Source: a virus. Taken from it: DNA of 64,000 nt. Location: the IMG/VR virus record IMGVR_UViG_3300028654_000018, positions 4,508-68,507 of that record. One strand, given 5' to 3'. A model generated the notes under the pieces. That model was not told the origin of the DNA and ran no database searches. It saw only the letters and a list, made by a program, of their open reading frames with translations. This document shows, one piece after another, positions 41,201 to 63,657 of the stretch (within the stretch, counting starts at the first letter, position 1; each line of letters starts with the position of its first letter). A program made the translations under genes and the position numbers.

Positions 41201-41424
41201 TTATGATATTTTATAAATGCTCTTTTTCTAGTAAAAAGCATATTAATAAATGGATCATAATCATCATTTTCTTTATCTACAAGATGCTCTATTACTTTAT
41301 TGAATTCTTTTTCACCCTTAGACAAATTAGCATGACTAAGCGGCGTAATATTACCATATCCGCGTAGCATTGCAATCAGACAATTGCTATAACTAGAATT
41401 TTGAGATGGCTCGAATGTTATCAT
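38282..41424 (-). CDS. Six hypothetical proteins (38282-38533, 38526-39134, 39233-39793, 39841-40221, 40264-40473, 40522-41424)
   Basis: ORF track; several follow TTGAC-type promoters. Confidence 0.55.
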
Positions 41425-43139
41425 TTTTCTTTTAACTTTTTATTCTTCAATATTAATTTATGTGTGTGAAATTTATCTATAGTCTTTCTATGACCAACAC
41501 TTATTATAGTAGTCTTAGGTAGTTTTGCCAAAAGTAATTTATAACTAACTTGCTCACTTTCTTCGTCCATCGAACTAGTGGATTCATCGAGAAATAGAAA
41601 GTCGGGCTTCTGTAATATAGCGCGAATGAATGCAATTTTTTGTTTTTGGCCGCCCGATAATATTTTGTTCCAGTCAGCTTCCTTAAGAATATCATCTCGG
41701 AGATCATGTAAACCAATTTCATACATCAACTGTTGTATTTCTGCCCGATCAAAAAGTATTTGCAAAACTGTTTTTCCTTTAGTATCTGGAGAATTTCCCG
41801 GATAACATATAACATCCAGTAATGTTCCCAATGGCATATAGGAATTCTGACTAATGAACATTTGCGTCTTATTTGTTGGCATATTGATTGTTCCCAACGC
41901 ATATGGCCAAATATTCGCAATACATCTTAATAGTGTACTTTTGCCTGTGCCATTTGCGCCAGAGATAACATATCTTCCTGTAGTTTTGAAGTTAAACGTA
42001 GCATTATCAAGTAATACGCCATTGTTAGGCAATGAAATTGTGAAGTTCTTGATACCAAATATTTTTTTATTAATGAATTTCACTTTTTTATTATGATCTA
42101 ATTCTTGCCAATCATTGACTGCCGTTTCAAAACCATTTAAACGATTTATCACGGCGCGATAATTTGCTAAATTTGTAAAGCTATCGACAAACCATGCCAA
42201 AGAACTTTGAACACTGTCGAATGCACTTGCTGTTTGCATTAATCCACCAAGTTTAATAGCTCCAGAGAAAAACCTCGGCGCACTTACGAGATAGGGAAAT
42301 ATCACGGCTATTTGTGAAAAATAACTCGACCACCAATTCAAATGCTTTTGTTTTGTATTAATTTTGTTGAAGTTATCGAAGACAAAAGAAAATCGTTTCA
42401 TAAATCCTTTCTTCTCAAATTTTTCTCCCTTATACAGAACAATGCTTTCACTATTCTCTCTTGTTCGCATCAAACTATAACGAAAGTTGGCTTCGAATTG
42501 CTCTTGAATGAAACTAAGACCAGGAAGTTTTTTACCGATCTTTCTCGTTACGAACGTTCCAAATACTGAATAAACTAATACTCCCCACACAAGATAATGT
42601 CCGATGAATATTTCATGCCCCATCAAAGTGAAAGTTATGCTGTCACTTAATCCCCACAATATAAAAATGAAGCTAAAGAACGTTACAACAGAACTTAATA
42701 GTCCGAGACTTAACGACAAGCTTAAAACAACGAATGAGTTGATATCTTCACTTATACGTTGGTCTACGTTATCGGCACTTGATGAAAGAAATTGGGAACC
42801 GTAAAATGTTTTTGTTTTAAGCCACGTTTCTAGATTTTTCTCTGTGAGCCAATTTCTCCACGTAATCTGTAATTTTTGAAAAAAGTAAGATTTATACCCG
42901 TATATACCAACAAATATTAATGCTAGTATCATAAATTTCTTAATATAGTACAAGAAAGCTGGTTGGTCTAAATTTTGTAAACTATCATAAAAGCCATTGC
43001 GCCAGCTATTAAACTGCACATTTAAATATACGAGTGTCATTTCCATTGCAATGATCGAAACTAATAAAAATATAGGTTTCCATCTATTTGGATTCGTAAC
43101 AAAAAAAGCTTTCCAGTATTTTACGATTGATTTAAACAT
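41421..43139 (-). CDS. ABC transporter, fused permease/ATPase (YddA/BclA/ExsE, SbmA-BacA related)
   Basis: DNVDQRISED, EANFRYSL, GANGTGKST Walker A, LSGGQKQ signature, FLDESTS, SVGHR. Confidence 0.92.
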   Translation of the reverse strand: MFKSIVKYWKAFFVTNPNRWKPIFLLVSIIAMEMTLVYLNVQFNSWRNGFYDSLQNLDQPAFLYYIKKFMILALIFVGIYGYKSYFFQKLQITWRNWLTEKNLETWLKTKTFYGSQFLSSSADNVDQRISEDINSFVVLSLSLSLGLLSSVVTFFSFIFILWGLSDSITFTLMGHEIFIGHYLVWGVLVYSVFGTFVTRKIGKKLPGLSFIQEQFEANFRYSLMRTRENSESIVLYKGEKFEKKGFMKRFSFVFDNFNKINTKQKHLNWWSSYFSQIAVIFPYLVSAPRFFSGAIKLGGLMQTASAFDSVQSSLAWFVDSFTNLANYRAVINRLNGFETAVNDWQELDHNKKVKFINKKIFGIKNFTISLPNNGVLLDNATFNFKTTGRYVISGANGTGKSTLLRCIANIWPYALGTINMPTNKTQMFISQNSYMPLGTLLDVICYPGNSPDTKGKTVLQILFDRAEIQQLMYEIGLHDLRDDILKEADWNKILSGGQKQKIAFIRAILQKPDFLFLDESTSSMDEESEQVSYKLLLAKLPKTTIISVGHRKTIDKFHTHKLILKNKKLKEK

Positions 43140-43144
43140 AATTT

Positions 43145-43585
43145 TTATTTTTCATCTGAGGGGGAATATGACTGTGTATATGATATATTATTTTTAATCT
43201 CAGAAGCAAGAGATATTTTTTCTATAAGTTTCTTAAAACACTTCTTTCTATTGATTTGCCAGTTCTTACTATTTCTTGGCATATCTAAATGCCACATATA
43301 TTCAATCTTCGCTGATATCACTGCACTATCAGTCTCATTATCATTCGTAAAAATCATATCAATTGCATTGATTGCCTTTATAAAGTCCACAGTGACTGTA
43401 TCGAAATTATTTTCTAACAAAATTCTTAGTATTTTTTTACCTTCATCATTGTGGCGTTTTATTTTGGAAAAATAATCTTTTAACGCATCGTACAGCAACT
43501 TAATTAAAAACCCAGATAAGAGCGTTATCGTGTGTGCCGTGGGCTTATGATTTTCTAAAATATCAGAAATAAAATCTATATTCAT
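43145..43585 (-). CDS. Hypothetical protein
   Basis: ORF track. Confidence 0.5.
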   Translation of the reverse strand: MNIDFISDILENHKPTAHTITLLSGFLIKLLYDALKDYFSKIKRHNDEGKKILRILLENNFDTVTVDFIKAINAIDMIFTNDNETDSAVISAKIEYMWHLDMPRNSKNWQINRKKCFKKLIEKISLASEIKNNISYTQSYSPSDEK

Positions 43586-44475
43586 TTAACATCCATCAGT
43601 GAGATCATATTCCACATTATAGTAGCGCCAGCCAATGCAGTAATCTGCGATACATCGTATGCCGGACATACTTCGACAAGATCAGCGCCGATCAATTTCT
43701 TATTTTTAGAATGAAGTTGTTTCATAATTTCCATAATCTGCCATGTGAACAAACCGCCGACTTCTGGCGTTCCTGTTCCTGGCGCTTGTGATGCATCGAG
43801 ACAGTCAATATCAAATGTCATATACGTTGGCAAACCATCCGTAGATTGAATAATATCGTCGGCCAGATCATCCAAATTCATTTTATGAACCGTTGATGCG
43901 TTATATTGAATGATTCCTCTATCTATTAGCCAGTCATTGTTGCTTTTTGGAGAAGATGAACGAATTCCAATTTGAACTATGCGTTCTGGATCTACTAATC
44001 CATCTTCAATTGCCAATCTTAAAAAATTTCCGTGATTGGGCGTTTTACCTTCGTCCCAAGCATCAATGTGCGCATCGAAATGAACGAGCGACATTTTCCC
44101 ATATTTTTTATAATGCGCTTTAAGAATCGGATAGGTAATTGTGTGGTCGCCACCCATAGAAATAAGTTTTGTTTTATCGACTAGCTTTGTAAAATCTGAT
44201 TCCAGCATTGCTATTGGTACTACTCGGTCGATTTCAACGTCTCCGATGTCTCCTACATTTTTTAAAATGTCGTCATATGACATATCTGTATATGGATTGC
44301 GGCCGTCGCATAGCATTGCGCTTGCATCACGAATAGCAGTTGGTCCCAATCTCGCGCCGGGTCTATTTGACGTTCCGAGATCATAACAAACTCCGACGGT
44401 TGATATAGGTTTATGACCGACAGGACCTACTGAAGTTTTCATAAAAGAACGTATGCCAGTGTAAGTATTCGTCAT
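43582..44475 (-). CDS. speB: Agmatinase / ureohydrolase
   Basis: RPGARLGP, GGDHT, DAHID, DIDCLD, APGTGTPEVGG, DLVEV. Confidence 0.92.
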   Translation of the reverse strand: MTNTYTGIRSFMKTSVGPVGHKPISTVGVCYDLGTSNRPGARLGPTAIRDASAMLCDGRNPYTDMSYDDILKNVGDIGDVEIDRVVPIAMLESDFTKLVDKTKLISMGGDHTITYPILKAHYKKYGKMSLVHFDAHIDAWDEGKTPNHGNFLRLAIEDGLVDPERIVQIGIRSSSPKSNNDWLIDRGIIQYNASTVHKMNLDDLADDIIQSTDGLPTYMTFDIDCLDASQAPGTGTPEVGGLFTWQIMEIMKQLHSKNKKLIGADLVEVCPAYDVSQITALAGATIMWNMISLMDVK

Positions 44476-44713
44476 TATGCGTCCTTTAGACGTATTAACA
44501 CATGCTCTGCGATAAGCCCTTGATCTGATTGATCTAATTTTTGATATTTCTTCGAATATTCGTCGTGTCTCTCTTTAAAAATCTTTGCATCGAAGCCTTC
44601 TTTAGCTTCGCAATAAGCTAAAAGATCAAAATATAGGGCAATAAGCTCCATCGGATCTATCATCCGTCTAGAATACTATGAAATGCTTGATATGTCAAAG
44701 ATTAAATAATATC

Positions 44714-45049
44714 ATGAAGTTAAAAGAACTCCTTAATGAAGCGATGTCTAAAGATCAAGCCGTGGCTACTTTTGCTCGATTTGGCGTGCGCGATGCCCTG
44801 AAATATGCCGCGCCACAATTGAAAACGTTATATCTTGCATTAGCAAAGAAAAACCATCCTGATGCGGGTGGGTCGGTAGAGCGCATGACTGAAATCAATG
44901 CCGCATACGATGTTTTGAAGAAAGTTAAAGCTGGCTTGGAAGCGTTTGGGTTTAATCGTGACGATTTTCCGTATACAGGAACTAAGCATACAGACGCCCT
45001 AAATCAGTTTTGGGCGGCTGCTGAACGCGCACGAAACAATAAGAAATAA
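44714..45049 (+). CDS. J-domain (DnaJ-like) protein with MKLKELLNE leader
   Basis: LAKKNHPDAGG...EINAAYDVL; TAAATA 5 nt before the ATG at 44714. Confidence 0.8.
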   Translation: MKLKELLNEAMSKDQAVATFARFGVRDALKYAAPQLKTLYLALAKKNHPDAGGSVERMTEINAAYDVLKKVKAGLEAFGFNRDDFPYTGTKHTDALNQFWAAAERARNNKK

Positions 45050-45095
45050 TTTGACATAAATAACTATGAACTGTTAAAGTTCTATTTTAGAGAAT

Positions 45096-45170
45096 GTTCC
45101 TGTAGCTTAACGGTTAAAGCAGTAATCTCTAAAATTATCAATGTCGATTCGATTTCGACCAGGAACACCA
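45096..45170 (+). tRNA. Amber suppressor tRNA (anticodon CUA)
   Basis: Acceptor GTTCCTG/CAGGAAC-A-CCA; anticodon arm GTAAT-CTCTAAA-ATTAT; T arm GTCGA-TTCGATT-TCGAC; TTGACA at 45051. Confidence 0.9.
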
Positions 45171-45193
45171 ACAACTAACAAAAAGGATATACT

Positions 45194-45283
45194 ATGACTA
45201 TGTAGGTTTATAATTCTCGCGCTTCTCCTTGTAAGGTAATTAAACGATTAATTACACATCTTACAATCTCAAAGGAGAACAAC
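45194..45283 (+). promoter_or_regulatory. Amber-interrupted leader (MTM*VYNSRASP...) with SD-sequestering hairpin
   Basis: AAAGGA SD, ATG 45194, TAG 45203-45205, then open and in frame to ATG 45284; TTCTCCTT 45223-45230 pairs with AAGGAGAA 45272-45279. Confidence 0.75.
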
Positions 45284-45676
45284 ATGACTAACACGACACA
45301 TACACCAAAAACTAATTTTTTCAATACCAAAGAAGACTATATTAAATTTATTACTCACTGGAAAGCTTTAGCTAACAGCAAAAAAGCTACGTGCGAAGAA
45401 CATATACTTTACACAATTCTAAAAGGTAATGATTTTAATAAAGCATTTACTCCCGTTACAAATAAAACTAAAATAATACATAATTTAAGCGGAAATAAAT
45501 ATGGTAACATTGCTACTGCATATCATAGAGTTAGCTATGCACTTACAACTATCCAAGGACCGCTGCATCTAATTATTAAGTCAAGTTGGTATACGACACT
45601 AAATGATGATACTAAGGAAAAATTAAAATTTTTCTTCACTAATACAACATTTAAGAAAATAATCGGAGAAGAATAA
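45284..45676 (+). CDS. Hypothetical protein
   Basis: AAGGAG SD; HILYTILKG...KAFTPVTN; TAATG coupling to the next gene. Confidence 0.75.
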   Translation: MTNTTHTPKTNFFNTKEDYIKFITHWKALANSKKATCEEHILYTILKGNDFNKAFTPVTNKTKIIHNLSGNKYGNIATAYHRVSYALTTIQGPLHLIIKSSWYTTLNDDTKEKLKFFFTNTTFKKIIGEE

Positions 45677-46008
45677 TGAAAACAGAAACACAATATATCT
45701 ATGTCTTTGTTCGCAAAGATATGCTTGTTGAGTTTCAGATTGTTCAAGCTTGTCACGCATCGTGCGTGGCAGGCGAACAGTTTGGTGGTAGTAATTCACA
45801 TATGGTATTGCTAGGACTCTCTGGGCCAGATGAACTTGAATCTCTTACAGCATGGTTACAAGTTTATAAAATTCCATTTGTTACATTTTTTGAATCAGAT
45901 GATAATATGGGTAATTCTGCCGTAGCTACTTCTCCTATATCTGGAGAATCACGTAAAAATATTAAAAAAATAATCGATGATATGAAACTCGTTCTATGGA
46001 AATTATAA
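45676..46008 (+). CDS. Peptidyl-tRNA hydrolase, Pth2-like
   Basis: YVFVRKDM...VQACHA...MVLL...FFESD...SAVATSP, the PTH2-family pattern. Confidence 0.78.
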   Translation: MKTETQYIYVFVRKDMLVEFQIVQACHASCVAGEQFGGSNSHMVLLGLSGPDELESLTAWLQVYKIPFVTFFESDDNMGNSAVATSPISGESRKNIKKIIDDMKLVLWKL

Positions 46009-46440
46009 CATCTTTATCATGTGAATCGCCGGAGATTTGTCATGATAGTAAGACGGCAACTCTCCGGTTTTTGTAAATCCTAATTTTTGATATAATCCGA
46101 TAGCAGTAGTATTATCCGGGCGAACTTCTAACGTCAACGCAATTTTTCCTTTGCTCTTTGCAATAGATTCAACATGTGTAATTAGCTGTTGTGCTAATCC
46201 TCTACCACGAAATTCTTGAGATACGGTCAAAGAATATACTCTATCATTTTTACATTTTATTCTATGTAAAACAATTATAGATGCCGCAAGTTTATTATTT
46301 TCTTCATAGACAAAAATATCAGTCGTATTACTAGATAATAATCTAGCGAGTTGCGATTTTTTAAAGGCATCAGCACCAAATGCGCTTTGTTCTAGCGTCA
46401 AGAGTTCTGAAATATCATTTATTGTTGCTTGGCGAATCAT
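46003..46440 (-). CDS. GNAT acetyltransferase, RimI-like
   Basis: V-x3-FRGRGLA, LEVRPDN-x2-AIGLYQKLGF, YYHD. Confidence 0.88.
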   Translation of the reverse strand: MIRQATINDISELLTLEQSAFGADAFKKSQLARLLSSNTTDIFVYEENNKLAASIIVLHRIKCKNDRVYSLTVSQEFRGRGLAQQLITHVESIAKSKGKIALTLEVRPDNTTAIGLYQKLGFTKTGELPSYYHDKSPAIHMIKML

Positions 46441-47130
46441 TTAAATGTCCATATCGATATCATCTAGTTCTGCTATTGTTACTAGATCGCTGTCACGCTC
46501 ACATAACTTGATATATTTTTCTTTATCGGTTGACCATTCACTGCCTGTCCACCATTCAAATCCAGGAATCGATGCTTTATATATGCAACCACGTTCGCTT
46601 CCTTCGCCAATATATAAATGCGTTAAGCCAAGCGATTTGGCATACTCAACTTCTTTATCTTGAATTATTTTACCGATTGATAATTTTGGATTGTGATAAT
46701 TCCAACAAAACATATAACTTTCTAACGTGCCATTAAATTTAGAAAATTTAGTAAATGCTACAGGAATAGAATTTTCAAATACAACACCATAAACAGGGGG
46801 ATATAACAAATCATTAGTAATGGGATTGTAGCAGTCAGAAAAATTTTTATATGCGATGTAATCTTTATATATTTGCGTCAAACTGTCTTTGTCAAAATCA
46901 TCCAACGTGCCTATTTTAAACTCTAACTTTTTCGGCCATTTGTTCTTTACGACATGTTTCGCCAGATCAATTCTTACCGTTCGTGCTTGATACCATCCAC
47001 CATCAAGATAAATCCAACCATTTTCCATAGCATGTTTTTCTTCATCTGGCGCTACTTCAGCACGAACTAAGTTATATGTTATTTTTTCTTTTGATTGTTT
47101 GCTGAAAACTGTTGTAAACGTTATCTTCAT
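46441..47130 (-). CDS. Aminoacyl-tRNA--protein transferase-like (ATE1/Bpt fold)
   Basis: GW...RTVRIDL, LSIG, E-x2-YAK-x2-G-x2-HLYIG...YKA. Confidence 0.55.
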   Translation of the reverse strand: MKITFTTVFSKQSKEKITYNLVRAEVAPDEEKHAMENGWIYLDGGWYQARTVRIDLAKHVVKNKWPKKLEFKIGTLDDFDKDSLTQIYKDYIAYKNFSDCYNPITNDLLYPPVYGVVFENSIPVAFTKFSKFNGTLESYMFCWNYHNPKLSIGKIIQDKEVEYAKSLGLTHLYIGEGSERGCIYKASIPGFEWWTGSEWSTDKEKYIKLCERDSDLVTIAELDDIDMDI

Positions 47131-47235
47131 ATGTGTGCCAGAGCTACACTTCCTGTATTGTTAGTCTATACTGTATTTATTGTACTGACCCTGTTCGTAG
47201 ATTTACTATTGTATAACAATGCATTAAATATTGAT

Positions 47236-47880
47236 ATGAAGATTATAGGAACATACAAAGATTTTAAAGTGAGAGAAGTAGACGGTAAAGCTGTCCGCGA
47301 TGAACTTGCTACGGAATTTAGCGAATGGGGTTCACATCTTACATATAAGTTTATCCCTAAAAATGAACTGTGGATCGAAAAGCAAGATCATTTCGAGGCA
47401 GATGACAGAAAGCCACTTATAGCAGCGGCATATACCGAACATAATGCATTAAAACATGGCAAATCTAAAAACGAAGCTTATGATGATGCTTTGAATGCCG
47501 AAGAACAAATCAGAAAAAGACAAAAGCACTTAGAATTTCCGATCAAAGTAAAAAAATTAACGACAATAGGAAATTTAAACTTGTGGTTAGTAAACGGCGA
47601 GTTAGTACGCGATAATCTTGATGCTGACTTTGCCGAAGGCGGACATGGCATGGTATATCCCTATATTCCAAAAAATGAAATATGGTTAGATGATGCAGTA
47701 ATGAATGATTTAGAAAATATATTTGTGCATGAAGTTACCGAGTATAATTTGATGTCTGACGGAATGAAATATGAAGACGCACATAATATCGCCAACAAAA
47801 CAGAACATGATGCTCGAAAAAGTGCCGCGAATAAACAAAAAATTCTTAAAGAACAAATTGCAAAATTATTGAAAATCTAA
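47236..47880 (+). CDS. Hypothetical protein with two internal repeats and HExxE motif
   Basis: VDGKAVRD...IPKNELW and VNGELVRD...IPKNEIW; VHEVTE; TAAATA 5 nt before the ATG at 47236. Confidence 0.7.
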   Translation: MKIIGTYKDFKVREVDGKAVRDELATEFSEWGSHLTYKFIPKNELWIEKQDHFEADDRKPLIAAAYTEHNALKHGKSKNEAYDDALNAEEQIRKRQKHLEFPIKVKKLTTIGNLNLWLVNGELVRDNLDADFAEGGHGMVYPYIPKNEIWLDDAVMNDLENIFVHEVTEYNLMSDGMKYEDAHNIANKTEHDARKSAANKQKILKEQIAKLLKI

Positions 47881-47882
47881 AA

Positions 47883-47966
47883 TGGTGCCCCGTGAGAGAT
47901 TTGAACTCTCATCCTTTCGGACCAGATCCTAAGTCTGGCGCGTATATCCAGTTCCGCCAACGGGGC
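47883..47966 (-). tRNA. tRNA-Leu(UAG)
   Basis: CCAGA-CTTAGGA-TCTGG; long variable arm; CCA. Confidence 0.92.
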
Positions 47967-48013
47967 ATATACTTATATATTAACTCTATGCATAATCTTT
48001 TACAATATTAAAA

Positions 48014-48088
48014 TGGCACCGCCGCTCTGGTTCTGCCCCGAGGATTTCAGTTTTGGAGACTGATATGATACTATTTCATCACAGCGAT
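48014..48088 (-). tRNA. tRNA-Trp(CCA)
   Basis: TCAGT-CTCCAAA-ACTGA; G73; atypical T loop. Confidence 0.85.
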
Positions 48089-48093
48089 ATAAA

Positions 48094-48168
48094 TGGTCTA
48101 ACGTTCGGAATTTGCATCCGATTCTCCGGCTTCACGGGCCAGGGGTTTACTTCATAACCTAACGTCAG
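48094..48168 (-). tRNA. tRNA-His(GUG)
   Basis: CTGGC-CCGTGAA-GCCGG; A73; C33. Confidence 0.85.
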
Positions 48169-48201
48169 CATAATAGTGAACTTTCGTTCACGTTCTAAAA
48201 A

Positions 48202-48277
48202 TGGTGGGTAGTCTCCGAATCGAACGGAGTTTTTTGGTTCTTCAAACCAACGCTATTACCAAATCAGCTAACTGCCC
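48202..48277 (-). tRNA. tRNA-Phe(GAA)
   Basis: TTGGT-TTGAAGA-ACCAA; CCA. Confidence 0.9.
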
Positions 48278-48278
48278 G

Positions 48279-48350
48279 TCGCCCATGCAGGCGTCGCACC
48301 TGCCGCTGCATGATTCCAAATCATACCGATCACTCCGATCTTTATGGGCG
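48279..48350 (-). tRNA. tRNA-Pro(UGG)
   Basis: TATGA-TTTGGAA-TCATG; acceptor CGCCCAT/ATGGGCG-A; no encoded CCA. Confidence 0.82.
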
Positions 48351-48390
48351 TAACTCTTTTATACTCCTTTCAAAAGTATATTTTAAACTT

Positions 48391-48467
48391 TGGTGAATCT
48401 GGTGAGATTTTAACTCACGATATCTCGATTAAGAGTCGAGTGCTTTAAACGACTAAGCTACAGATTC
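48391..48467 (-). tRNA. tRNA-Lys(CUU)
   Basis: CTCGA-CTCTTAA-TCGAG; CCA. Confidence 0.9.
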
Positions 48468-48478
48468 ATGCACTAACT

Positions 48479-48555
48479 TGGTAGGAGTAGAGGGATTTGA
48501 ACCCATCCTAATCCGGTTTAAAAGACCGGCCCACAAACCACTATGACATACTCCC
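48479..48555 (-). tRNA. tRNA-Lys(UUU)
   Basis: CCGGT-CTTTTAA-ACCGG; CCA. Confidence 0.88.
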
Positions 48556-48560
48556 GTAAT

Positions 48561-48638
48561 TGGCGCGTCTGGCGGGATTTGAACTCGCACTATGTTGGGT
48601 TCGAAGCCCAATGCCCTATCCAGTTGGGCGACAGACGC
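48561..48638 (-). tRNA. tRNA-Arg(UCG)
   Basis: TTGGG-CTTCGAA-CCCAA; CCA. Confidence 0.9.
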
Positions 48639-48646
48639 ATAAAAAA

Positions 48647-48734
48647 TGGCTCGCTAGGTTCGACTCGAACGAACAGTGCCTATTAAGGACGGAAGATTAA
48701 CAGTCTTCTGGGGTTACCATTTTCCTACTAGCAA
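48647..48734 (-). tRNA. tRNA-Asn(GUU) with long variable arm
   Basis: GAAGA-CTGTTAA-TCTTC; 17-nt variable region; G73-CCA. Confidence 0.82.
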
Positions 48735-48741
48735 ATAAACT

Positions 48742-48828
48742 TGGTCCGTAGTGTGGGATGTGCGCCCACTCACTCCTGCGAGAACTGGGTTACAGCCGGT
48801 TGCAACTCTCTCACTTTGCCGCCTACGG
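48742..48828 (-). tRNA. tRNA-Tyr(GUA), atypical
   Basis: ACCGG-CTGTAAC-CCAGT; long variable arm; T loop CGCACAT; apparent C1:G72, A73. Confidence 0.75.
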
Positions 48829-48867
48829 ATAATAAATTCTTTTTCTCCTTCTCAAAAATTTACATAA

Positions 48868-48900
48868 CAAAAAAGCCCGAAACTTTCGTTTTCGAGCTTG
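48868..48900 (-). terminator. Attenuator-type intrinsic terminator in front of the tRNA operon
   Basis: Minus strand AAGCTCGAAAAC-GAAA-GTTTCGGGCTT followed by TTTTGTT. Confidence 0.85.
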
Positions 48901-48926
48901 GTATTCTGAAAAATGTTTTCTAAGTT

Positions 48927-49034
48927 TTACATTTTTTGCACGCAGAATAGCAAGCCCGATTGTGGATAATTGGGTTTATGAAACGGACGGAAGAGTTGCC
49001 AGTTCAAGTTGCTATATGTTTGCTGCGTAATCAT
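48927..49034 (-). CDS. Putative leader peptide, 35 aa: MITQQTYSNLNWQLFRPFHKPNYPQSGLLFCVQKM
   Basis: Hand translation; ATG lies 5 nt after TAAATA; 3' part overlaps an antiterminator strand. Confidence 0.75.
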   Translation of the reverse strand: MITQQTYSNLNWQLFRPFHKPNYPQSGLLFCVQKM

Positions 49035-49039
49035 AATAT

Positions 49040-49103
49040 TATTTATCTTTCATATGTAATAAGTCATTTAAACGACTATATCGTATAATCTTCTATCTGT
49101 CAA
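49040..49103 (-). promoter_or_regulatory. Tandem promoters for the leader/tRNA operon: sigma70-type TTGACA-N17-TATAGT and late-type TAAATA
   Basis: -35 at 49098-49103, -10 at 49075-49080, TAAATA at 49040-49045. Confidence 0.7.
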
Positions 49104-49116
49104 GCAAATAGTGTAA

Positions 49117-49192
49117 TGGTGGACCTGGCCAGGATTGAACTGGCGACCTCAGAATTGCAAATCCTGCGCTCTCCCAACTGAGCTACAGGCCC
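49117..49192 (-). tRNA. tRNA-Ala(UGC)
   Basis: CAGGA-TTTGCAA-TTCTG; G3:U70; TATAAATA just upstream. Confidence 0.95.
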
Positions 49193-49233
49193 ATGTAATT
49201 ATTTATACACTCTATCAGACACATGCTTAACTG

Positions 49234-49587
49234 TCAATTATAATTATGAAAATAGCAATAGCCAGCAAGTCGAACTGTATCAGCGCCAACATCCATAATA
49301 AACGATGAATTATCTAGGTCATTTGTAAATGTTATCTGGATGAAATAATATTTTATCGGAATATATGTTCCTAAATTTCCTATACCAGTTTGAAATGCTT
49401 GTTCTATCGCGTTCTTCATATTATTAATCGGTTCTTCTATCTGAACATCTTCTAAAATTTGAATTATCGCATCAGGATACATGCACTTGACACAGCAACG
49501 TAAGCTATGTAATGCTGGAAATTGTTGAGTAACATGTGTGATCCATGTTCTCTCGCCAGTTCTGAAAAAATATTTCTGTTCTGTCAT
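49234..49587 (-). CDS. Hypothetical protein
   Basis: ORF track. Confidence 0.55.
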   Translation of the reverse strand: MTEQKYFFRTGERTWITHVTQQFPALHSLRCCVKCMYPDAIIQILEDVQIEEPINNMKNAIEQAFQTGIGNLGTYIPIKYYFIQITFTNDLDNSSFIMDVGADTVRLAGYCYFHNYN

Positions 49588-50090
49588 TTTTGCATCTCCG
49601 CAATTTTTTCTCTAAGTTGTTCTAAAGAAATCGGCGTATAATTAATCTGTTCTACAGAAACATTATAATATTTCGGATCGTTCATTGAACCGCCGTGTAA
49701 ATGTCCGTGAACATTAACGCCGAATCTATCTAAACATTCTTTAGCAATAGGAACGTGACTAAGAATCATATCTTTAAAATTGTGTGTCCCGTAAATTTCT
49801 TCGAAGTATTGCATCAATTCTGTTGTCGGCGCCGTATCATGATTTCCGCGAATGAGAATTTTCTTTCCCTTTAATCTATATACGATGGGCAAGCATCTAC
49901 GGTTCATTACAACATCGCCCATATGATATACTGTATCTTCATCTCGTACTACGCTATTCCATCGTTCTACGAGATGTTCATCATGTTCTTCAATTGATGG
50001 GAAATTTCTTAGCGGAGTTCCGTCTTCACGCAAAAACGTCAGGATGTTACGGTGGCCAAAATGTGTATCCCCAATGAAAAATATTGTCAT
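49584..50090 (-). CDS. Calcineurin-like metallophosphoesterase
   Basis: GDTHFGH, HMGDV, RGNHD, LSHVP, VHGHLH. Confidence 0.92.
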   Translation of the reverse strand: MTIFFIGDTHFGHRNILTFLREDGTPLRNFPSIEEHDEHLVERWNSVVRDEDTVYHMGDVVMNRRCLPIVYRLKGKKILIRGNHDTAPTTELMQYFEEIYGTHNFKDMILSHVPIAKECLDRFGVNVHGHLHGGSMNDPKYYNVSVEQINYTPISLEQLREKIAEMQK

Positions 50091-50572
50091 TTCAGCATAC
50101 CATTCTTTTTGAGTAATTCAATTTCTTCTTTTGTAAGATCATGATTAAACAACGTTTGAAAATAAAATTCAAACATTGCTACATCCGAAACATCTTCAAA
50201 AATTATTTCGTGATACTGCCATTCTTCTAAATCTTTTACAGGCGGTAATTTATTTATTTTATAATTTGTTATGCCACGCTGTTCAAGTATATGACGCAAT
50301 ATAATAAATTCATCTTCTGTCCAGTCATCACACAATAATCTATTTTCTGTTTGTGTTTTCAAAATTTTTGAAGCATGTTCAAAAAATCTATATCTATGAA
50401 TTGAAATATTATCATATTTAAATGACACTTCGGCCACTTCATCTGTCAATGAATTTAGGAAAAGATATTCGGAATCTACTCCGTCAAAACGAACACACGA
50501 ATCAAGATTATGAATCTTGTATAGAATTCGTTGTTCTATATTTTTTGTAAGAAGTTCGGTATTTGTGGTCAT
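50087..50572 (-). CDS. Hypothetical protein (DxAxF family)
   Basis: FEDVSDVAMFEFYF; start reassigned to MTTNT because the longer ORF overlaps a tRNA. Confidence 0.6.
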   Translation of the reverse strand: MTTNTELLTKNIEQRILYKIHNLDSCVRFDGVDSEYLFLNSLTDEVAEVSFKYDNISIHRYRFFEHASKILKTQTENRLLCDDWTEDEFIILRHILEQRGITNYKINKLPPVKDLEEWQYHEIIFEDVSDVAMFEFYFQTLFNHDLTKEEIELLKKNGMLK

Positions 50573-50620
50573 TGTGTTATAGTAACATATGAAGTGAGAT
50601 AATAAAAGATTTATTGAGGT

Positions 50621-50694
50621 TGGAACGAGTGACCAGAATCGAACTGGCGTGGTCAGATTGGAAATCTGAGGTTCTACCACTGAACTACACTCGC
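50621..50694 (-). tRNA. tRNA-Gly(UCC)
   Basis: TCAGA-TTTCCAA-TCTGA; U73-CCA; TATAAATA upstream. Confidence 0.95.
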
Positions 50695-50730
50695 ACTATA
50701 ACTATTTATATTAGTACAATATTTGATTGT

Positions 50731-51421
50731 TCACAAGTTATTTTTTATCTGATTATAAAATCTAAGTTTGAAAAAAGAATAATCCGCATCGTCCGTAAAA
50801 GTTAACGTAATTCGATCAGGTCGTAATGGATGATATCCATATCTCAACCAGGTATAATTCTCGATTCCCATATGTTTAAGAATATGATGCAAGACTTCTA
50901 TATTAGGAACAAATGATATTTCGAATATCATATCATGTTCTTCGAGAAATGCGACACTTCCAATCGAGAAATAAGACGTAGACGTTACCGTAGATCCGTC
51001 ATAATCAGATGCATACACGTCAACAATAGTCGCAAATCTATTCTCATCATCGATATAGATTTTTCTTTCTGGCGTGTCGAGAATTAACTGATTATCTGAC
51101 ATAAATTTATCAACAAGTTTGAGTTAGTGTTATTTGATCGCTCAAAGCGCGTATAATAAATTCTGCTTCATCAATATCTGACTTAAAACGCACAGATATA
51201 TTATAGTATTGTTCTCCAATCTCTTCGGATTTTATTTCGGCGTTTAATTTGAATCTAGATAGTCTTCGAATGGCTCTGTCGGATGACTTTTTGGTGTAGA
51301 ACTTCCATCTATACTGCTGGCAATCGTCAGCAAAAGATTCATAGCCGGTCAAAACTTGATGAACGTACCATTTTCTCTTGTGTGTTTTTGATCGAGTAAA
51401 TCGTGTTATATATTGCGGCAT
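50731..51421 (-). CDS. Two hypothetical proteins (DxAxF family; 50731-51102, 51110-51421)
   Basis: FTDDADYSFFKLRF and FKSDIDEAEFII. Confidence 0.6.
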
Positions 51422-51792
51422 GAGATTAGAGAAGTGAACGAAAAATATATGTCAATAAAACTACGATGTCAACTGTTGCAACCACAATAGATGCGTATGC
51501 CGCACGTAGTCTAACATTTACTAAATCTGGATTCTTTGCTACTTTATAACACATCAACAGTGATGCGAAGAAAAGTAAAGTTAGCAATGAAATAGTAAGC
51601 CACATGTTTATTCCTTAAAGGATAAAATATCCGACATACATTAAACTTACTCCCACGATAAAGCACAGTAATTCAATCTTGTGCTGCTCATTTTCAGAAT
51701 GAACACCAAGAATGCAAGCAATTATAATCAAAAATATCGCAGAAAATAAAATCATAGTTTGATTATACACTAGATTGAAGATAAGTCAAGTA

Positions 51793-54165
51793 TTAAAAGG
51801 TAGATACAGCAGTTCTAACCCAGGAGTCTGAGGCTATACAGAAATATGCAAATAAACCATCAACAAAACAATCGCCAGTCGTACCTGAAGAAGAAGAACT
51901 TGCTGGGGCAGATGCTACAAATCGAATAACTGTAAACCCACCAGTTGTTAATGTACTTAAAATATCTACTTCGCCGGTCGATAAATTACCGGTCAAAATA
52001 TTACCGATATTTAGATAGTTGCTCGTAGATGTAGTAGGAGTCGTTACGATATTTCCGGTTGCGCCAGGACCAATTAAAATATTATATGAACCAGTTGTTA
52101 GTGTGATACCAGATGTATTATACCCGGTTTTATATCCGAGCAACGTATTAATCTGACCACTTGTTACTCCTGCGCCTGATAATTGTCCTAATGCGGAGTT
52201 CGCGCTACCGCCTTGAATGCTTGTTAATGATGAAATACCCACCGCTGTATTCGACGTGGTGCCATTTGAACTGCCAGAAACTCCTTGTAGTGCTGAATTT
52301 CCTACTGCGACATTACCATTGCTTGATGTTCCGAGATACTGCGCTGCTTGATAGCCAATAATAGTATTACTACTGACATTTCCTGCAGTGTTTGCCATAG
52401 CTTGTGCGCCAATAACAGTATTTGATCCGCCACTTGCATTGTTGAGTAATGCACTATGTCCGATTGCGGTATTTCCCGTTCCAGTATTGCTTGCAGGCGT
52501 AGAACTTCCTTGTAGTGCATATGCTCCTACTGCAGTGTTGTACGTAATAAAACTTGTGGCAGAACTATTAGCATATAGCATTGATGAAAATCCTATCGCA
52601 GTACTCTCACTTCCCGCGAAGTTACGCTGTAGTGCAAATGTTCCGACCGTTGTATTATTAATACCCGATGCATTAAAACTATTTGAAGCCGCGCCGACGG
52701 CAGTGTTTTGATATCCAGTTGTATTGCCGATAAGGGAGCCATCGCCAATCGCAGTATTGTTATCTCCCGTATTTGATAACAATGTATTTGTCCCGACTGC
52801 AGTATTGGATGCGCTAGTAGTAACTGCACTAAGTGCTGAATTTCCTACGGCAGTATTATGTTGACCCGTTGTAAGGGCGTGTAATGATAGGCCACCAATG
52901 GCTGTATTGTTGGATCCTGCAAAACCAGCTCCACTTATTGCAAAGTTTCCGGAATTTATTCCTACAAAGGTATTAATGCCGCCCAATGTTCCTGACGGTG
53001 TAAAATTATGAATGAATGGCAATCCACCAAAATCAATTACGCCGACTGTACTGCTCGTTGTATTAGGCAATTTTAGAGTCGCGCTCAAATTAATATCGCC
53101 TGTAACATCTAACGCATATGACGGAGTATTATTATCGATACCCAAACGATGATTTGTATCATCCCAGAAAAATTTAGTATTATCTTGTGATATTGCGCCG
53201 GATGCTCCTGCAAATAAAACACTGCCGGTAGTTAAACTTGTGAGATTAATATTTGGAACTGATAAAATTCCAGTCAATGTTGGAGAAGCTGAGAATACAA
53301 CATTGCCACTTCCAGTAACTCCTGATACAACGGTTCCTTGAATTTTTGCAATGGTTGGATTCGGCAATGTTCCTGTTAAGTCGCCACCTAAAGATCCAAC
53401 ATTTGCTGCTGCTGCTCCAGACGCTATCATTGCTGCTGTGATGCCTGCCGTAGCAACCGAAATTGTTCCGGATGTCGTAATCGGATTCGGCATTGCTGTT
53501 AAACCAGAACCTGCGGTAATCGACGTGACTGTTCCAGAACTGCCACCAGAAGTTGTTAAATCAATTGTGGTTCCTGACGGAGTTATCGTGATACTAGAAT
53601 TAGATGATGTTAATGTTAAATTTCCAAATAATGAGTTTAATGTTGATACGCCTGCACTAGCTCCTCCAAGTGACCATGACGTTATTCCAGTTCCATCTGT
53701 TGTTAATACATAACCATTTGCTCCAGCATTTGACGGCAATGTTAATGACCAACTAGAAAATGATGCCGGCGTTTTTAGTGTAATTGTGTCGAGGAGTGGG
53801 GCAGTGCCTATATTGTTACTCGAACTACTTAAATTCATATTTCCGATTACATCTAAACTCTGTAATGGATTTGGATTGTTGATGCCGACAAAATGATTTG
53901 TTCCGCTAATGATAAACGGAGTGGATGTTAAATCTGCGGTCGAAACGCCAAATGATCCTCTGGCAACCGCAGGATAATTGATATTGGTCCCTAATAACCA
54001 TTGATGATGATCGCCATCTAAAATACCAGCAGAGCGAAAGCTTATAGATGCTTCTAGCGTTGTTGAGGCTCCATTAGGATCGTTTACAGGATCGTAGCCT
54101 ATAAGTTTTAAGATACCATTTGTTGGTAATCCCGAAAGAGTTAAAACACTTTTATATATTGTCAT
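51793..54165 (-). CDS. Gly/Ser/Thr/Asn-rich fibre or beta-solenoid virion protein (tail fibre/adhesin-like)
   Basis: Many N-T-A-(V/I)-G-x2-(A/S)-L repeats of about 14 residues; LGI-x3-P-x3-LDV-x-G fibre motifs; late promoter. Confidence 0.7.
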   Translation of the reverse strand: MTIYKSVLTLSGLPTNGILKLIGYDPVNDPNGASTTLEASISFRSAGILDGDHHQWLLGTNINYPAVARGSFGVSTADLTSTPFIISGTNHFVGINNPNPLQSLDVIGNMNLSSSSNNIGTAPLLDTITLKTPASFSSWSLTLPSNAGANGYVLTTDGTGITSWSLGGASAGVSTLNSLFGNLTLTSSNSSITITPSGTTIDLTTSGGSSGTVTSITAGSGLTAMPNPITTSGTISVATAGITAAMIASGAAAANVGSLGGDLTGTLPNPTIAKIQGTVVSGVTGSGNVVFSASPTLTGILSVPNINLTSLTTGSVLFAGASGAISQDNTKFFWDDTNHRLGIDNNTPSYALDVTGDINLSATLKLPNTTSSTVGVIDFGGLPFIHNFTPSGTLGGINTFVGINSGNFAISGAGFAGSNNTAIGGLSLHALTTGQHNTAVGNSALSAVTTSASNTAVGTNTLLSNTGDNNTAIGDGSLIGNTTGYQNTAVGAASNSFNASGINNTTVGTFALQRNFAGSESTAIGFSSMLYANSSATSFITYNTAVGAYALQGSSTPASNTGTGNTAIGHSALLNNASGGSNTVIGAQAMANTAGNVSSNTIIGYQAAQYLGTSSNGNVAVGNSALQGVSGSSNGTTSNTAVGISSLTSIQGGSANSALGQLSGAGVTSGQINTLLGYKTGYNTSGITLTTGSYNILIGPGATGNIVTTPTTSTSNYLNIGNILTGNLSTGEVDILSTLTTGGFTVIRFVASAPASSSSSGTTGDCFVDGLFAYFCIASDSWVRTAVSTF

Positions 54166-56531: not shown

Positions 56532-56888
56532 GATTTCAGATCATCTATAAGCGGGATTCTGTATCTCTTTCGAGACGACTATCATTCATCTGGGACTCAC
56601 ATTACTGTAAGCCTCAAGCCATCAACCCGACAGCAACGGAAGAATTCGTTATTACTGCCCTATTCGATGTTGCTTCTAGCAAGGTTTCCAGTGCCTAAAT
56701 TATTACTAATTTAGCGGTAGTCTCTTACACTACCTTTTTCACCCTTACCAGTTGACTTAAACTGGCGGTTTGTTTCTGTGTACTATCTCTTAGATCACTC
56801 TAGCTGGACGTTATCCAGTGCTATTTTCTTCTGAAGGCCCGACTTTCCTCTATGTTTTCACACAGCGATAGTCCAACGATCTGAAATC
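56532..56888 (-). ncRNA. rnpB: RNase P RNA (bacterial type)
   Basis: GAGGAAAGTCGGGC near the 5' end, ACAGAATCCCGCTTA near the 3' end (P4), terminal P1 GATTTCAGATC/GATCTGAAATC; about 357 nt; TTGACT promoter upstream. Confidence 0.93.
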
Positions 56889-63297: not shown

Positions 63298-63330
63298 AAA
63301 AAGCCCCGCTAAAGTTGCGAGGCTCTTTTC
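63298..63330. terminator. Bidirectional terminator between convergent genes
   Basis: AAAAAGCCCCGC...GCGAGGCTCTTTT hairpin. Confidence 0.6.
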
Positions 63331-63347
63331 ATTTTATTTTTTATTAA

Positions 63348-63539: not shown

Positions 63540-63657
63540 TTTATTCTCCTGGATTAAAGTTAGTTGTTTGTTTTTAAAAACAAACGGCGCATAATACGCC
63601 GTTTCATTAAAGACAACATAACAAACATGAGGATCATAGTCAATCGAATAATGAGGT

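What the first reader, a model, noticed from the sequence alone, without database searches (positions are those of the whole stretch)
47883..49103. Leader-peptide transcription attenuator whose codons match the ten-tRNA operon it precedes: a candidate phage sensor of tRNA depletion
Seen (minus strand, in order): two promoters, an unannotated 35-codon ORF (49034-48927; MITQQT-YSNLNWQLFRPFHKPNYP-QSGLLFCVQKM), an intrinsic terminator (48900-48868), then tRNAs Tyr, Asn, Arg, Lys, Lys, Pro, Phe, His, Trp, Leu. All nine amino acids of the operon occur in codons 7-24, and 16 of those 18 codons specify them, including the rare Trp and His. The RNA has mutually exclusive helices. Segment 2 (TCGGGCTTGCTATTCTG, 48959-48943, codons 26-31) pairs with segment 3 (CAGAATACCAAGCTCGA, 48908-48892) at 16 of 17 positions, one a G:U, and segment 3 includes the terminator's 5' arm. 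Segment 1 (ATAGCAACTTGA, 49015-49004) can alternatively pair with segment 2. Established: this is the 1:2/2:3/3:4 layout of trp/his/ilv attenuators, and host defences such as the anticodon nucleases PrrC, RloC and PARIS AriB destroy tRNAs during infection. Inference: a ribosome stalling at one of these codons for lack of the host tRNA lets the antiterminator form, switching on replacement tRNAs on demand. I know of no described multi-amino-acid attenuator controlling a phage tRNA array.
Basis: partly seen in the sequence, partly recalled or inferred. Interest (0 to 1): 0.95.

Follow-up and report, generated by a model that had tools for sequence, protein, structure and literature searches.

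The report
Leader-peptide attenuator gating phage tRNA operon
A 35-codon mini-gene wired to a switchable transcription stop sits in front of ten tRNA genes of an uncultured giant phage and is written in the amino acids those tRNAs carry, so the phage probably makes them only when ribosomes run short, a control I found in no paper.

Summary
A strong sigma-70-like promoter, a 35-codon ORF, a 10-bp intrinsic terminator and ten tRNA genes lie in the stated order on the minus strand.

Evidence for an attenuator:
- The segment 2:3 antiterminator is far beyond chance (0 of 2000 shuffles).
- Ribosome-masked folds switch from antiterminator to terminator at codon 23.
- The one fetchable relative, L088, keeps the promoter position, start context, reading frame (in-frame indels), terminator and alternative helices. 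It has three compensatory pair changes and no disruptive one.
- The ORF is the only one of 537 in the window whose 18-residue stretch holds at least 16 residues from the operon's nine amino acids and all nine kinds.

Evidence against or missing:
- By strict wobble only 12 of 18 codons are read by the operon's tRNAs, and 45 of 536 ORFs do as well.
- Translation and regulation are unproven, and there is only one real relative.
- The link to anti-phage tRNA nucleases is untested.

I checked an unrelated analogue in Caulobacter phage phiCbK and found the same design. This scan has already noted such elements on other phage DNA. Nine literature searches found no published case.

Verdict: probably a ribosome-mediated attenuator, a new variant of a known kind.

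The parts
49075..49103 (-). sigma-70-like promoter TTGACA-17-TATAGT
   Evidence: 11 of 12. L088 has a promoter-like site (10 of 12) at the matching distance from the ATG, though the sequence around it is not conserved.
49040..49045 (-). TAAATA motif 5 nt before the ATG (candidate phage late promoter, giving a leaderless mRNA)
   Evidence: 12 TAAATA-N3-7-ATG sites in the window. Six head ORFs of 111-790 codons and three more are followed within a few bases by a tRNA gene. The motif and its spacing are invariant in L088.
48927..49034 (-). 35-codon leader ORF (stop codon included)
   Evidence: The frame is kept in L088 (37 codons, in-frame indels, same ATG-stop ending).
48984..49029 (-). 5' strands of hairpin P1 (anti-antiterminator, region 1): leader nt 6-12, 20-26 and 47-51. 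They lie in codons 2-17, which overlap the regulatory codons.
   Evidence: Two G:C-to-A:U double changes and further pair-keeping single changes against L088, none disruptive.
48943..48959 (-). Segment 2: 3' strand of P1 and 5' strand of the antiterminator. Its first 8 nt repeat the terminator's 3' arm.
48892..48908 (-). Segment 3: 3' strand of the antiterminator, overlapping 8 nt of the terminator's 5' arm
48867..48899 (-). Intrinsic terminator (10-bp stem, 7-nt loop, T-run)
   Evidence: L088 has the homologous terminator with a G:C-to-U:A compensatory change.
48742..48828 (-). tRNA-Tyr(GTA), divergent T loop
   Evidence: relaxed ARAGORN only. At the same position L088 has a tRNA-Tyr(GTA) that default ARAGORN finds.
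48647..48734 (-). tRNA-Asn(GTT) with long variable arm
48561..48638 (-). tRNA-Arg(TCG)
48479..48555 (-). tRNA-Lys(TTT)
48391..48467 (-). tRNA-Lys(CTT)
48278..48350 (-). tRNA-Pro(TGG)
48202..48277 (-). tRNA-Phe(GAA)
48094..48168 (-). tRNA-His(GTG), C at position 33
   Evidence: 41.5 bits
48017..48088 (-). tRNA-Trp(CCA), divergent
   Evidence: 32.3 bits; cut-off 29
47883..47966 (-). tRNA-Leu(TAG), last gene of the operon

Best explanation
This is a ribosome-mediated (leader-peptide) transcription attenuator that gates a ten-tRNA operon of a giant phage.

Transcripts start at the sigma-70-like promoter, and probably also at a TAAATA late-type promoter that would make the ORF leaderless. They carry a 35-codon ORF whose RNA folds on itself into hairpin P1.

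- Untranslated, or translated smoothly to the stop codon: segment 2 stays in P1 or under the ribosome, the terminator forms, and transcription stops before tRNA-Tyr.
- Ribosome lingering anywhere in codons 2-22: this stretch holds a codon for each of the nine amino acids served by the operon. Segment 2 is set free and pairs with segment 3. The terminator's 5' arm is sequestered and RNA polymerase reads into the tRNA genes.

The output (more tRNA) would relieve the stall, which gives homeostatic control of tRNA supply.

Shown: the parts, their order, the alternative helices, their conservation, and the amino-acid match.
Inferred: translation of the ORF, stalling as the signal, and the feedback.
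For: 1. Parts and order.

2. The antiterminator is real. The 2:3 duplex is -22.3 kcal/mol, with 0 of 2000 dinucleotide shuffles as good. In L088 it is -17.1, with 4 of 2000 as good.

3. The switch behaves as the model needs. I masked the RNA from the 5' end to 13 nt past the A site. The window's minimum-energy fold then has 6-8 of the 10 terminator 5'-arm bases paired upstream for A-site codons 2-22, and the full 10-bp terminator from codon 24 on (9 of 10 pairs at codon 23). Transcripts cut before the terminator's 3' arm show the antiterminator in both sequences until about codon 22-24. Unmasked full-length RNA folds as P1 plus terminator.

4. Conservation in L085-level relative L088 (neighbouring phosphoesterase 85% identical; the aligned 385 columns show 81% mean column identity):
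- TAAATA-N5-ATG is invariant.
- The ORF stays open, at 37 against 35 codons, through in-frame indels. The other two frames carry 2-3 stops.
- P1 has two G:C-to-A:U double changes, three of whose four substitutions are synonymous, plus further pair-keeping single changes.
- The terminator has a G:C-to-U:A double change.
- No change breaks a pair.

5. The start context is shared with six ORFs of 111-790 codons.

6. Amino-acid match: it is the only ORF of 537, and the only one of 30,268 18-residue stretches, with at least 16 of 18 residues and all nine kinds. L088's leader again holds all nine.

7. An independent analogue in phiCbK:
- Annotated terminators precede the tRNA blocks.
- A 32-codon ORF starts about 7 nt after a TTGACA-17-TAGGGT promoter. 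Nine of 12 residues are F/V/I/Q before a Phe-Val-Ile-Ile-Val-Gln-Gln block, and 1 of 9075 stretches is as good.
- gp083 has 31 of 44 residues P/K/L/A/S before a Pro-Pro-Lys-Lys-Leu-Leu-Leu-Ala-Ser-Ser block, and 6 of 4280 stretches are as good.
- The same terminator-arm sequestration appears while the A site is at or before codon 14.
Against: - No expression, ribosome or termination data exist for this uncultured phage.
- There is no Shine-Dalgarno sequence. Translation rests on the leaderless reading of TAAATA-N5-ATG, which is itself an inference.
- By strict wobble only 12 of 18 codons are read by the operon's tRNAs, and 45 of 536 ORFs match as well. Allowing four-way wobble gives 15 of 18, reached by 6 of 536. 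tRNA-Arg(TCG), tRNA-Lys(CTT) and tRNA-Leu(TAG) have no strictly cognate codon in codons 2-22.
- The Arg anticodon differs between the window (TCG) and L088 (ACG) without a clear matching change of the leader's Arg codons.
- There is only one real relative. The window-L088 differences fall 6/6/9 over codon positions, with 5 synonymous and 11 non-synonymous codons, which is a weak coding signal. A drift simulation does not show that membership of the amino-acid set is kept by selection (P = 0.18).
- In L088 the full-length equilibrium fold keeps at least 6 of the 10 terminator pairs at every ribosome position (all 10 except at codons 21-23), so antitermination there must be kinetic.
- In the window the whole-leader fold is only z = -1.7.
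- In 166 loci of more distant phages with the same phosphoesterase I found no further convincing leader.
Confidence: 0.55

Rival explanations
1. A conditional terminator that reports translation in general (ribosome availability, coupling, translation stress) rather than the supply of particular tRNAs. Any slowing of the leading ribosome in the first two thirds of the ORF opens the operon, and the amino-acid make-up is secondary.
For: The modelled switch depends only on ribosome position, not on which codon is read. The codon-level match is unremarkable (12 of 18; 45 of 536 ORFs as good). A tRNA array induced by impaired translation is in print for Anabaena (PMC8421152, abstract read). A uORF that senses general ribosome inhibition is in print (bioRxiv 10.1101/682021, search listing only).
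Against: The amino-acid match with all nine kinds is 1 of 537 ORFs. In phiCbK two different leaders each mirror their own block and not the other, which a general sensor does not need.
Confidence: 0.15
2. An independent small gene or small RNA with its own promoter and a leaky terminator. The tRNAs are made by basal read-through or from an unrecognised phage promoter in the 44-nt spacer. The match to the tRNA set is chance, helped by AT-rich codons, and the long hairpin serves RNA stability.
For: The peptide's C-terminal part and several central residues are conserved in L088. Attenuator RNAs and leader peptides can act in trans (Sinorhizobium rnTrpL/peTrpL; PMC7298713, PMC7968998, search listing only). 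A purine-rich motif in the spacer recurs before tRNA-Pro and could be a signal of unknown kind. The nine amino acids already make up 49% of residues in short ORFs of this DNA.
Against: The 8-nt repeat of the terminator's 3' arm inside the ORF and the 16-pair antiterminator (0 of 2000 shuffles) have no role in this reading. No sigma-70-like site lies in the spacer in the window or in L088. The conserved C-terminal residues coincide with segment 2, so RNA pairing explains them. Neither peptide is in the 15-billion-protein collection.
Confidence: 0.15
3. The alternative helices are set by a trans-acting factor (a phage antiterminator protein, or direct binding of uncharged tRNA as in T-box leaders), and the ORF is not what is read.
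For: The RNA switch alone does not prove that a ribosome is the effector. Phages often use dedicated antiterminators (general knowledge).
Against: No Rfam family, T-box included, matches 48860-49103 at E up to 1. The frame, the start context and the stop position are kept in L088 through in-frame indels, which a protein- or tRNA-binding leader would not require.
Confidence: 0.05

Closest known systems
Multivalent leader-peptide attenuators of enterobacterial amino-acid operons (ilvGMEDA: Ile/Val/Leu; thr: Thr/Ile; also trp, his, leu, pheA). Named from general knowledge; abstracts of PMC1183508 and PMC3082878 seen in search listings.
   Same: Promoter, short ORF with regulatory codons, region 1:2 hairpin, 2:3 antiterminator overlapping the terminator's 5' arm, intrinsic terminator, then the controlled genes. 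The stop codon lies so that a ribosome which finishes blocks the antiterminator.
   Different: The controlled genes are tRNA genes, not biosynthetic enzymes. Nine amino acids appear once to three times each instead of runs of one to three kinds. The start is probably leaderless. The element is in a phage. There is no sequence similarity to any Rfam leader.
Leaderless polycysteine short ORFs of mycobacteria (bioRxiv 10.1101/834739, abstract read)
   Same: A leaderless short sensory ORF whose stalled ribosome remodels downstream RNA structure and controls an operon.
   Different: Those ORFs control translation by freeing a ribosome-binding site and sense one amino acid. Here the output is transcription termination and the genes are tRNAs.
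Inducible tRNA array (trn operon) of Anabaena PCC 7120 (PMC8421152, abstract read; PMC10272220, abstract start seen in listing)
   Same: A supernumerary tRNA gene array that is kept silent and switched on when translation is impaired.
   Different: By the title and abstract start of PMC10272220, control there involves a transcriptional repressor (TrcR), not a leader peptide and terminator. It is a bacterial megaplasmid, not a phage.
Small ORF plus terminator before the tRNA blocks of Caulobacter phage phiCbK (JX100813). The record annotates the terminators and gp083 as a hypothetical protein. I found no paper on them.
   Same: Promoter, leaderless-looking short ORF enriched in the amino acids of the block behind it, a copy of the terminator's 3' arm inside the ORF, terminator, tRNA block.
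   Different: No sequence similarity to the window's leader, a different phage lineage and a GC-rich genome. There are several blocks, each with its own leader, whereas this window has one gated operon among about eight tRNA groups.

Membership tests
Leader-peptide (ribosome-mediated) transcription attenuators | Short ORF between the promoter and the controlled genes | tested here: met
   promoter 49103-49075, ORF 49034-48927, first tRNA at 48828.
Leader-peptide (ribosome-mediated) transcription attenuators | The ORF is translated | tested here: inconclusive
   There is no Shine-Dalgarno sequence. TAAATA-N5-ATG is shared with six long ORFs and invariant in L088. The frame is kept by in-frame indels. 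No ribosome or peptide data exist, and the peptide is absent from the protein collection.
Leader-peptide (ribosome-mediated) transcription attenuators | Regulatory codons cognate to what the operon supplies | tested here: inconclusive
   Met for amino acids: 16 of 18 and all nine kinds, 1 of 537 ORFs. Weak for anticodons: 12 of 18 by strict wobble, with 45 of 536 ORFs as good.
Leader-peptide (ribosome-mediated) transcription attenuators | Intrinsic terminator between the ORF and the controlled genes | tested here: met
   (10 bp plus T-run). Conserved with a compensatory change in L088.
Leader-peptide (ribosome-mediated) transcription attenuators | Antiterminator mutually exclusive with the terminator | tested here: met
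   16 pairs, 8 of them on the terminator's 5' arm. 0 of 2000 shuffles as good in the window and 4 of 2000 in L088.
Leader-peptide (ribosome-mediated) transcription attenuators | Region 1 lies in the regulatory codons and holds region 2 unless a ribosome stalls there | tested here: met
   Hairpin P1 with compensatory changes. Masked folds switch between codons 22 and 24. This is a thermodynamic model only.
Leader-peptide (ribosome-mediated) transcription attenuators | Read-through rises when the cognate charged tRNA is scarce | not testable with these tools
   The phage is uncultured. No run on record as RNA holds the stretch.
T-box leaders | Specifier loop and T-box sequence detectable by the Rfam model | tested here: not met
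   no T-box or any other cis-regulatory family at 48860-49103 at E up to 1.
Rfam amino-acid operon leaders (Trp_leader and others) | Match to a curated covariance model | tested here: not met
   none at the locus. The only Trp_leader hit (63296-63384, 28.2 bits against a cut-off of 41) is the end of an ORF plus an ordinary terminator.

The most novel reading that the evidence does not exclude
Phages of unrelated lineages (this uncultured giant phage and phiCbK-like Caulobacter phages) have independently built multivalent tRNA-pool gauges. These are leaderless test ORFs that sample one codon or a few for each amino acid of the tRNA block behind them and open a terminator on demand. Phage tRNAs would then be an inducible, self-limiting answer to tRNA shortage, including shortage caused by host tRNA-cleaving defences, rather than constitutive cargo.
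Probability: 0.3. Interest if true: 0.9.

Novelty: new variant of a known kind. Interest (0 to 1): 0.78.

Why it matters
Why phages carry tRNA genes, and when they use them, is an active question since tRNA-cleaving defences and phage tRNAs that evade them were described (PMC11464382, PMC11555353; abstracts seen in the listing).

A cis-acting gauge that reads the ribosome's own difficulty with each amino acid and answers by transcribing the matching tRNAs would be the first attenuation control of tRNA genes. It would also be the most multivalent leader peptide known. It would give a compact natural sensor of tRNA supply.

It is directly testable with reporters, and in the cultivable phiCbK-Caulobacter pair.

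Tried and rejected
Search for relatives
- GenBank phages by blastn gave only tRNA-sized hits for the locus (44 records, none covering 80% or more of the query) and no match for window 40000-47000.
- Exact or degenerate patterns of the terminator, tRNA-Tyr, the leader's peptide core and tRNA-Lys gave 0 hits each in viral contigs.
- The phosphoesterase next door has close relatives: 88, 86, 81, 79 and 75% identity, two of them on contigs of 228 and 164 kb.
- IMG/VR holds only relatives of 55% identity or less.
- The single metagenome scan gave one close locus, L088.

Sequencing runs
- No RNA holder is listed.
- Of the four runs laid, three covered only the tRNA-Ala part, by unrelated tRNA-like contigs.
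- The fourth (X9) gave one 241-nt contig over 48830-49071. It has one substitution (codon 16, CGT to CGC, synonymous) and a 1-nt deletion in the spacer. That is too little for covariation.

Survey of 166 loci around phosphoesterase relatives
- ARAGORN found 1048 tRNAs in 104 loci.
- With the window added, there were 401 clusters, 373 of them with 200 nt or more upstream.
- 25 of the 373 have a strict terminator within 160 nt upstream. Eleven of those 25 clusters hold two or more tRNAs, among them the window's operon, a second window cluster and L088.
- The others show no convincing leader.
- In a rank test on 45 clusters, the median rank was 0.45 and 6 clusters ranked at or below 0.05, one of them the window itself.
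- The most suggestive other hit (L135, L110) is an alternative frame of a real gene.
- My terminator rule allowed no mismatches, so imperfect terminators were missed.

Other checks
- A drift simulation for retention of the amino-acid set gave P = 0.18, so it adds no support.
- The Rfam Trp_leader hit at 63296-63384 was rejected as an ordinary terminator.
- I did not run the count of structure pairs. The MAFFT alignment places gaps so that homologous pairs fall in different columns. I compared pairs by coordinates instead.
- Pfam on 20 neighbouring proteins found nothing related to tRNA repair or defence.
- Nine literature searches and look-ups by term in PMC3082878 and PMC2965389 found no leader-peptide attenuator of tRNA genes. 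Subscription journals are not covered, and supplements were closed and not consulted.
Full report
WHAT IS THERE

The window is bases 4508-68507 of a 68.5-kb IMG/VR virus record that CheckV rates as 21% complete, so it is a fragment of a very large phage. On the minus strand, in order, lie:
- a strong sigma-70-like promoter (TTGACA-17-TATAGT, 11 of 12) at 49103-49075;
- a 35-codon ORF at 49034-48927;
- an intrinsic terminator at 48899-48873 with a 10-bp stem and a T-run;
- ten tRNA genes.

Default ARAGORN finds Asn, Arg, Lys, Lys, Pro, Phe and Leu. Tyr and His appear at a relaxed threshold. Rfam gives His 41.5 bits and a Trp-type tRNA 32.3 bits against a cut-off of 29. Several of these tRNAs have unusual loops, which explains the misses. 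This terminator-like site lies 44 nt upstream of tRNA-Tyr. The only other such site that my stricter rule found within 160 nt upstream of a window tRNA cluster is an 8-pair stem before Asp-Glu.

THE CODON CLAIM

Sixteen of codons 7-24 encode the nine amino acids of the operon, and all nine occur.
- Among 537 ORFs of 30 aa or more in the six frames of the window, 5 have an 18-residue stretch with at least 16 such residues. Nine have a stretch with all nine kinds. Only this ORF has both.
- Among 30,268 stretches the counts are 18, 38 and 1.
- The nine amino acids make up 42% of residues in long ORFs and 49% in short ones, so the enrichment is real but starts from a high base.
- At the level of anticodons the match is much weaker. 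By strict wobble 12 of 18 codons are read by the operon's tRNAs, which 45 of 536 ORFs equal. With four-way wobble in family boxes it is 15 of 18, reached by 6 of 536.
- tRNA-Arg(TCG), tRNA-Lys(CTT) and tRNA-Leu(TAG) have no strictly cognate codon in the effective part of the ORF.

THE RNA SWITCH

- Segment 2 (48959-48943) begins with an 8-nt repeat of the terminator's 3' arm. It pairs with segment 3 (48908-48892) in 16 pairs.
- The best duplex between the upstream leader and the 22 nt that end in the terminator's 5' arm is -22.3 kcal/mol. The mean of 2000 dinucleotide shuffles is -8.2 (sd 2.0), and none is as good.
- The unmasked leader folds as a long hairpin, P1, which pairs codons 2-17 with codons 26-32, followed by the terminator.
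- I modelled a ribosome by masking everything from the 5' end to 13 nt beyond the A site. The minimum-energy fold then has the terminator's 5' arm paired upstream for A-site codons 2-22, and the intact 10-bp terminator from codon 24 to the stop codon (9 of 10 pairs at codon 23).
- All nine amino acids have a codon within codons 7-21, which is inside the effective zone.
- With the first 45 nt masked, the best fold with the terminator forced and the best fold with its 3' arm blocked have equal energy in the window (-25.1 against -25.1).
- These are thermodynamic models with an assumed footprint. They show that the layout can work, not that it does.

THE RELATIVE

The neighbouring phosphoesterase has close relatives in public assemblies, but only one locus could be fetched: L088, at 85% protein identity. 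It carries the same module behind a different upstream neighbourhood. A 301-codon ORF with no Pfam match sits between the homologue of the 117-aa protein and the leader's promoter. Kept in L088:
- a promoter-like site at the same distance (10 of 12);
- the invariant TAAATA-N5-ATG;
- an open frame of 37 codons that differs by in-frame indels and ends with the same Met-stop, while the other two frames carry 2-3 stops;
- an 11-bp terminator;
- a tRNA operon that starts Tyr, Arg(ACG), Pro, Lys, Lys before the contig ends.

Helix by helix:
- The outer helix of P1 has one G:C-to-A:U double change made of two synonymous substitutions (Thr and Cys codons), and one A:U-to-G:U change.
- The middle helix is invariant.
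- The inner helix has one G:C-to-A:U double change (a synonymous Pro change paired with Ser-to-Met), one U:G-to-C:G change, and one mismatch turned into a pair.
- The terminator has one G:C-to-U:A double change and one A:U-to-G:U change.
- I saw no change that breaks a pair.

The 2:3 duplex in L088 is -17.1 kcal/mol, with 4 of 2000 shuffles as good. It is extended at its other end.

Against:
- In L088 the full-length equilibrium fold keeps most of the terminator for every ribosome position. Only transcripts cut before the 3' arm show the antiterminator, with 5 of 10 arm bases sequestered. Kinetic control of this kind is usual for attenuators (general knowledge).
- The coding signal is weak: differences fall 6/6/9 by codon position, with 5 synonymous and 11 non-synonymous codons.
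- A drift simulation does not show selection for keeping the amino-acid set (P = 0.18).
- A lake-water run holds a 241-nt contig of the leader with a single synonymous change.

START OF TRANSLATION

There is no Shine-Dalgarno sequence. The ATG lies 5 nt after TAAATA. Of the 12 TAAATA-N3-7-ATG sites in the window, six head ORFs of 111-790 codons and three more are followed within a few bases by a tRNA gene. This fits a phage promoter that starts transcripts a few bases downstream and so makes leaderless mRNAs. Leaderless sensory ORFs are known in mycobacteria (bioRxiv 10.1101/834739, abstract).

AN INDEPENDENT ANALOGUE

Earlier notes of this scan report the same kind of element in phiCbK-like, crAss-like, lake and giant phages. 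They are unchecked AI notes, so I tested one case myself. In phiCbK (JX100813):
- The record annotates rho-independent terminators directly before three tRNA blocks.
- Before the Phe-Val-Ile-Ile-Val-Gln-Gln block, a 32-codon ORF starts about 7 nt after a TTGACA-17-TAGGGT promoter. Nine of 12 consecutive residues are F, V, I or Q, and only 1 of 9075 stretches in the 6-kb locus is as good.
- Before the Pro-Pro-Lys-Lys-Leu-Leu-Leu-Ala-Ser-Ser block, the annotated 45-aa gp083 has 31 of 44 residues P, K, L, A or S, and 6 of 4280 stretches are as good.
- The first of these leaders contains a copy of its terminator's 3' arm. In truncated transcripts, 15 of 16 bases of the terminator's 5' arm pair upstream while the A site is at or before codon 14, and 4 from codon 18 on.

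Two unrelated phages therefore show the same design, and in phiCbK each leader mirrors its own block. By contrast, I found no further case in 166 loci of more distant phages that share the phosphoesterase and are rich in tRNA genes, so the design is not universal.

MECHANISM AND ODDS

Most likely (0.55) this is a ribosome-mediated attenuator.
- Smooth translation, or none, gives termination.
- A ribosome delayed in codons 2-22 frees segment 2, the antiterminator forms, and the ten tRNAs are transcribed.
- Their accumulation ends the delay.

Shown: the parts, the alternative helices and their conservation, and the amino-acid match. Inferred: translation, stalling as the signal, and feedback.

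Rivals:
- a general translation-stress gauge (0.15);
- an independent small gene or RNA with a leaky terminator and a chance match (0.15);
- a switch set by a trans-acting factor (0.05).

Nothing in this locus bears on it.

COMPARISON AND NOVELTY

It works like the multivalent leader-peptide attenuators of amino-acid operons and meets their structural criteria. It differs in four ways: what it controls (tRNA genes), its breadth (nine amino acids), its probably leaderless start, and its place in a phage. It matches no Rfam leader or T-box. The nearest concept in print is the Anabaena tRNA array induced under translational stress (PMC8421152, abstract), which a later paper's title ascribes to a repressor (PMC10272220, listing). 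Nine full-text searches and two in-paper look-ups found no attenuator of tRNA genes. The library lacks most subscription journals, and supplements were closed. I rate it a new variant of a known kind. The scan has noted such elements before on other DNA.

Noticed in passing
window 56532-56884 (-): Complete bacterial class A RNase P RNA among the tRNA clusters (276.7 bits against a cut-off of 100, model positions 1-367 of 367).
   Followed up: partly
window 45096-45170 (+): tRNA with anticodon CTA (an amber-reading type) behind a TTGACA promoter-like site. ARAGORN labels it Pyl and Rfam scores it 66.8 bits.
   Followed up: no
window 48017-48828 (-): Several operon tRNAs are non-canonical. Tyr is found only at a relaxed threshold. 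His has C at position 33. Asn(GTT) has a long variable arm (88 nt). Trp barely passes Rfam.
   Followed up: partly
window, 12 sites, e.g. 54165(-), 6372(-), 34426(+), 47236(+), 54573(-), 44714(+): TAAATA followed 3-7 nt later by ATG heads six ORFs of 111-790 codons that have no visible Shine-Dalgarno sequence. Three more such sites are followed within a few bases by a tRNA gene. This looks like a late-type promoter that gives leaderless mRNAs.
   Followed up: partly
window 48845-48856 (-) and 48364-48375 (-): A purine-rich motif (TTTGA-AAGGAG-A-rich) lies between the terminator and tRNA-Tyr and recurs just before tRNA-Pro. It is conserved in L088 before tRNA-Tyr. Its role is unknown; it could be a processing signal or an unrecognised promoter.
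   Followed up: no
window 63296-63384 (-): A weak Rfam Trp_leader hit (28.2 bits, cut-off 41) is only the end of ORF 63348-63713 plus an ordinary terminator hairpin.
   Followed up: yes
L088 3476-4381 (+): In the relative, a 301-codon ORF without a Pfam match and a divergent tRNA-like gene sit between the 117-aa protein's homologue (46% identical) and the leader's promoter. The promoter-leader-terminator-tRNA unit therefore travels as a module.
   Followed up: partly
loci L002-L167: The calcineurin-like phosphoesterase next to the operon sits in tRNA-rich DNA in many uncultured phages. ARAGORN finds 1048 tRNAs in 104 of 166 loci fetched around its relatives.
   Followed up: partly
window 41421-44475 (-): Unusual cargo near the tRNA region: a protein with SbmA/BacA-like and ABC transporter membrane-region matches plus an ABC ATPase domain (572 aa), and an arginase-family protein (297 aa).
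   Followed up: no
L169 (phiCbK 47000-53000), about 4520-4605: By eye, an unannotated tRNA-Tyr(GTA)-like sequence with a long variable arm lies between the annotated terminator and tRNA-Phe. It would match the Tyr codon in that block's leader. No tool confirmed it.
   Followed up: no
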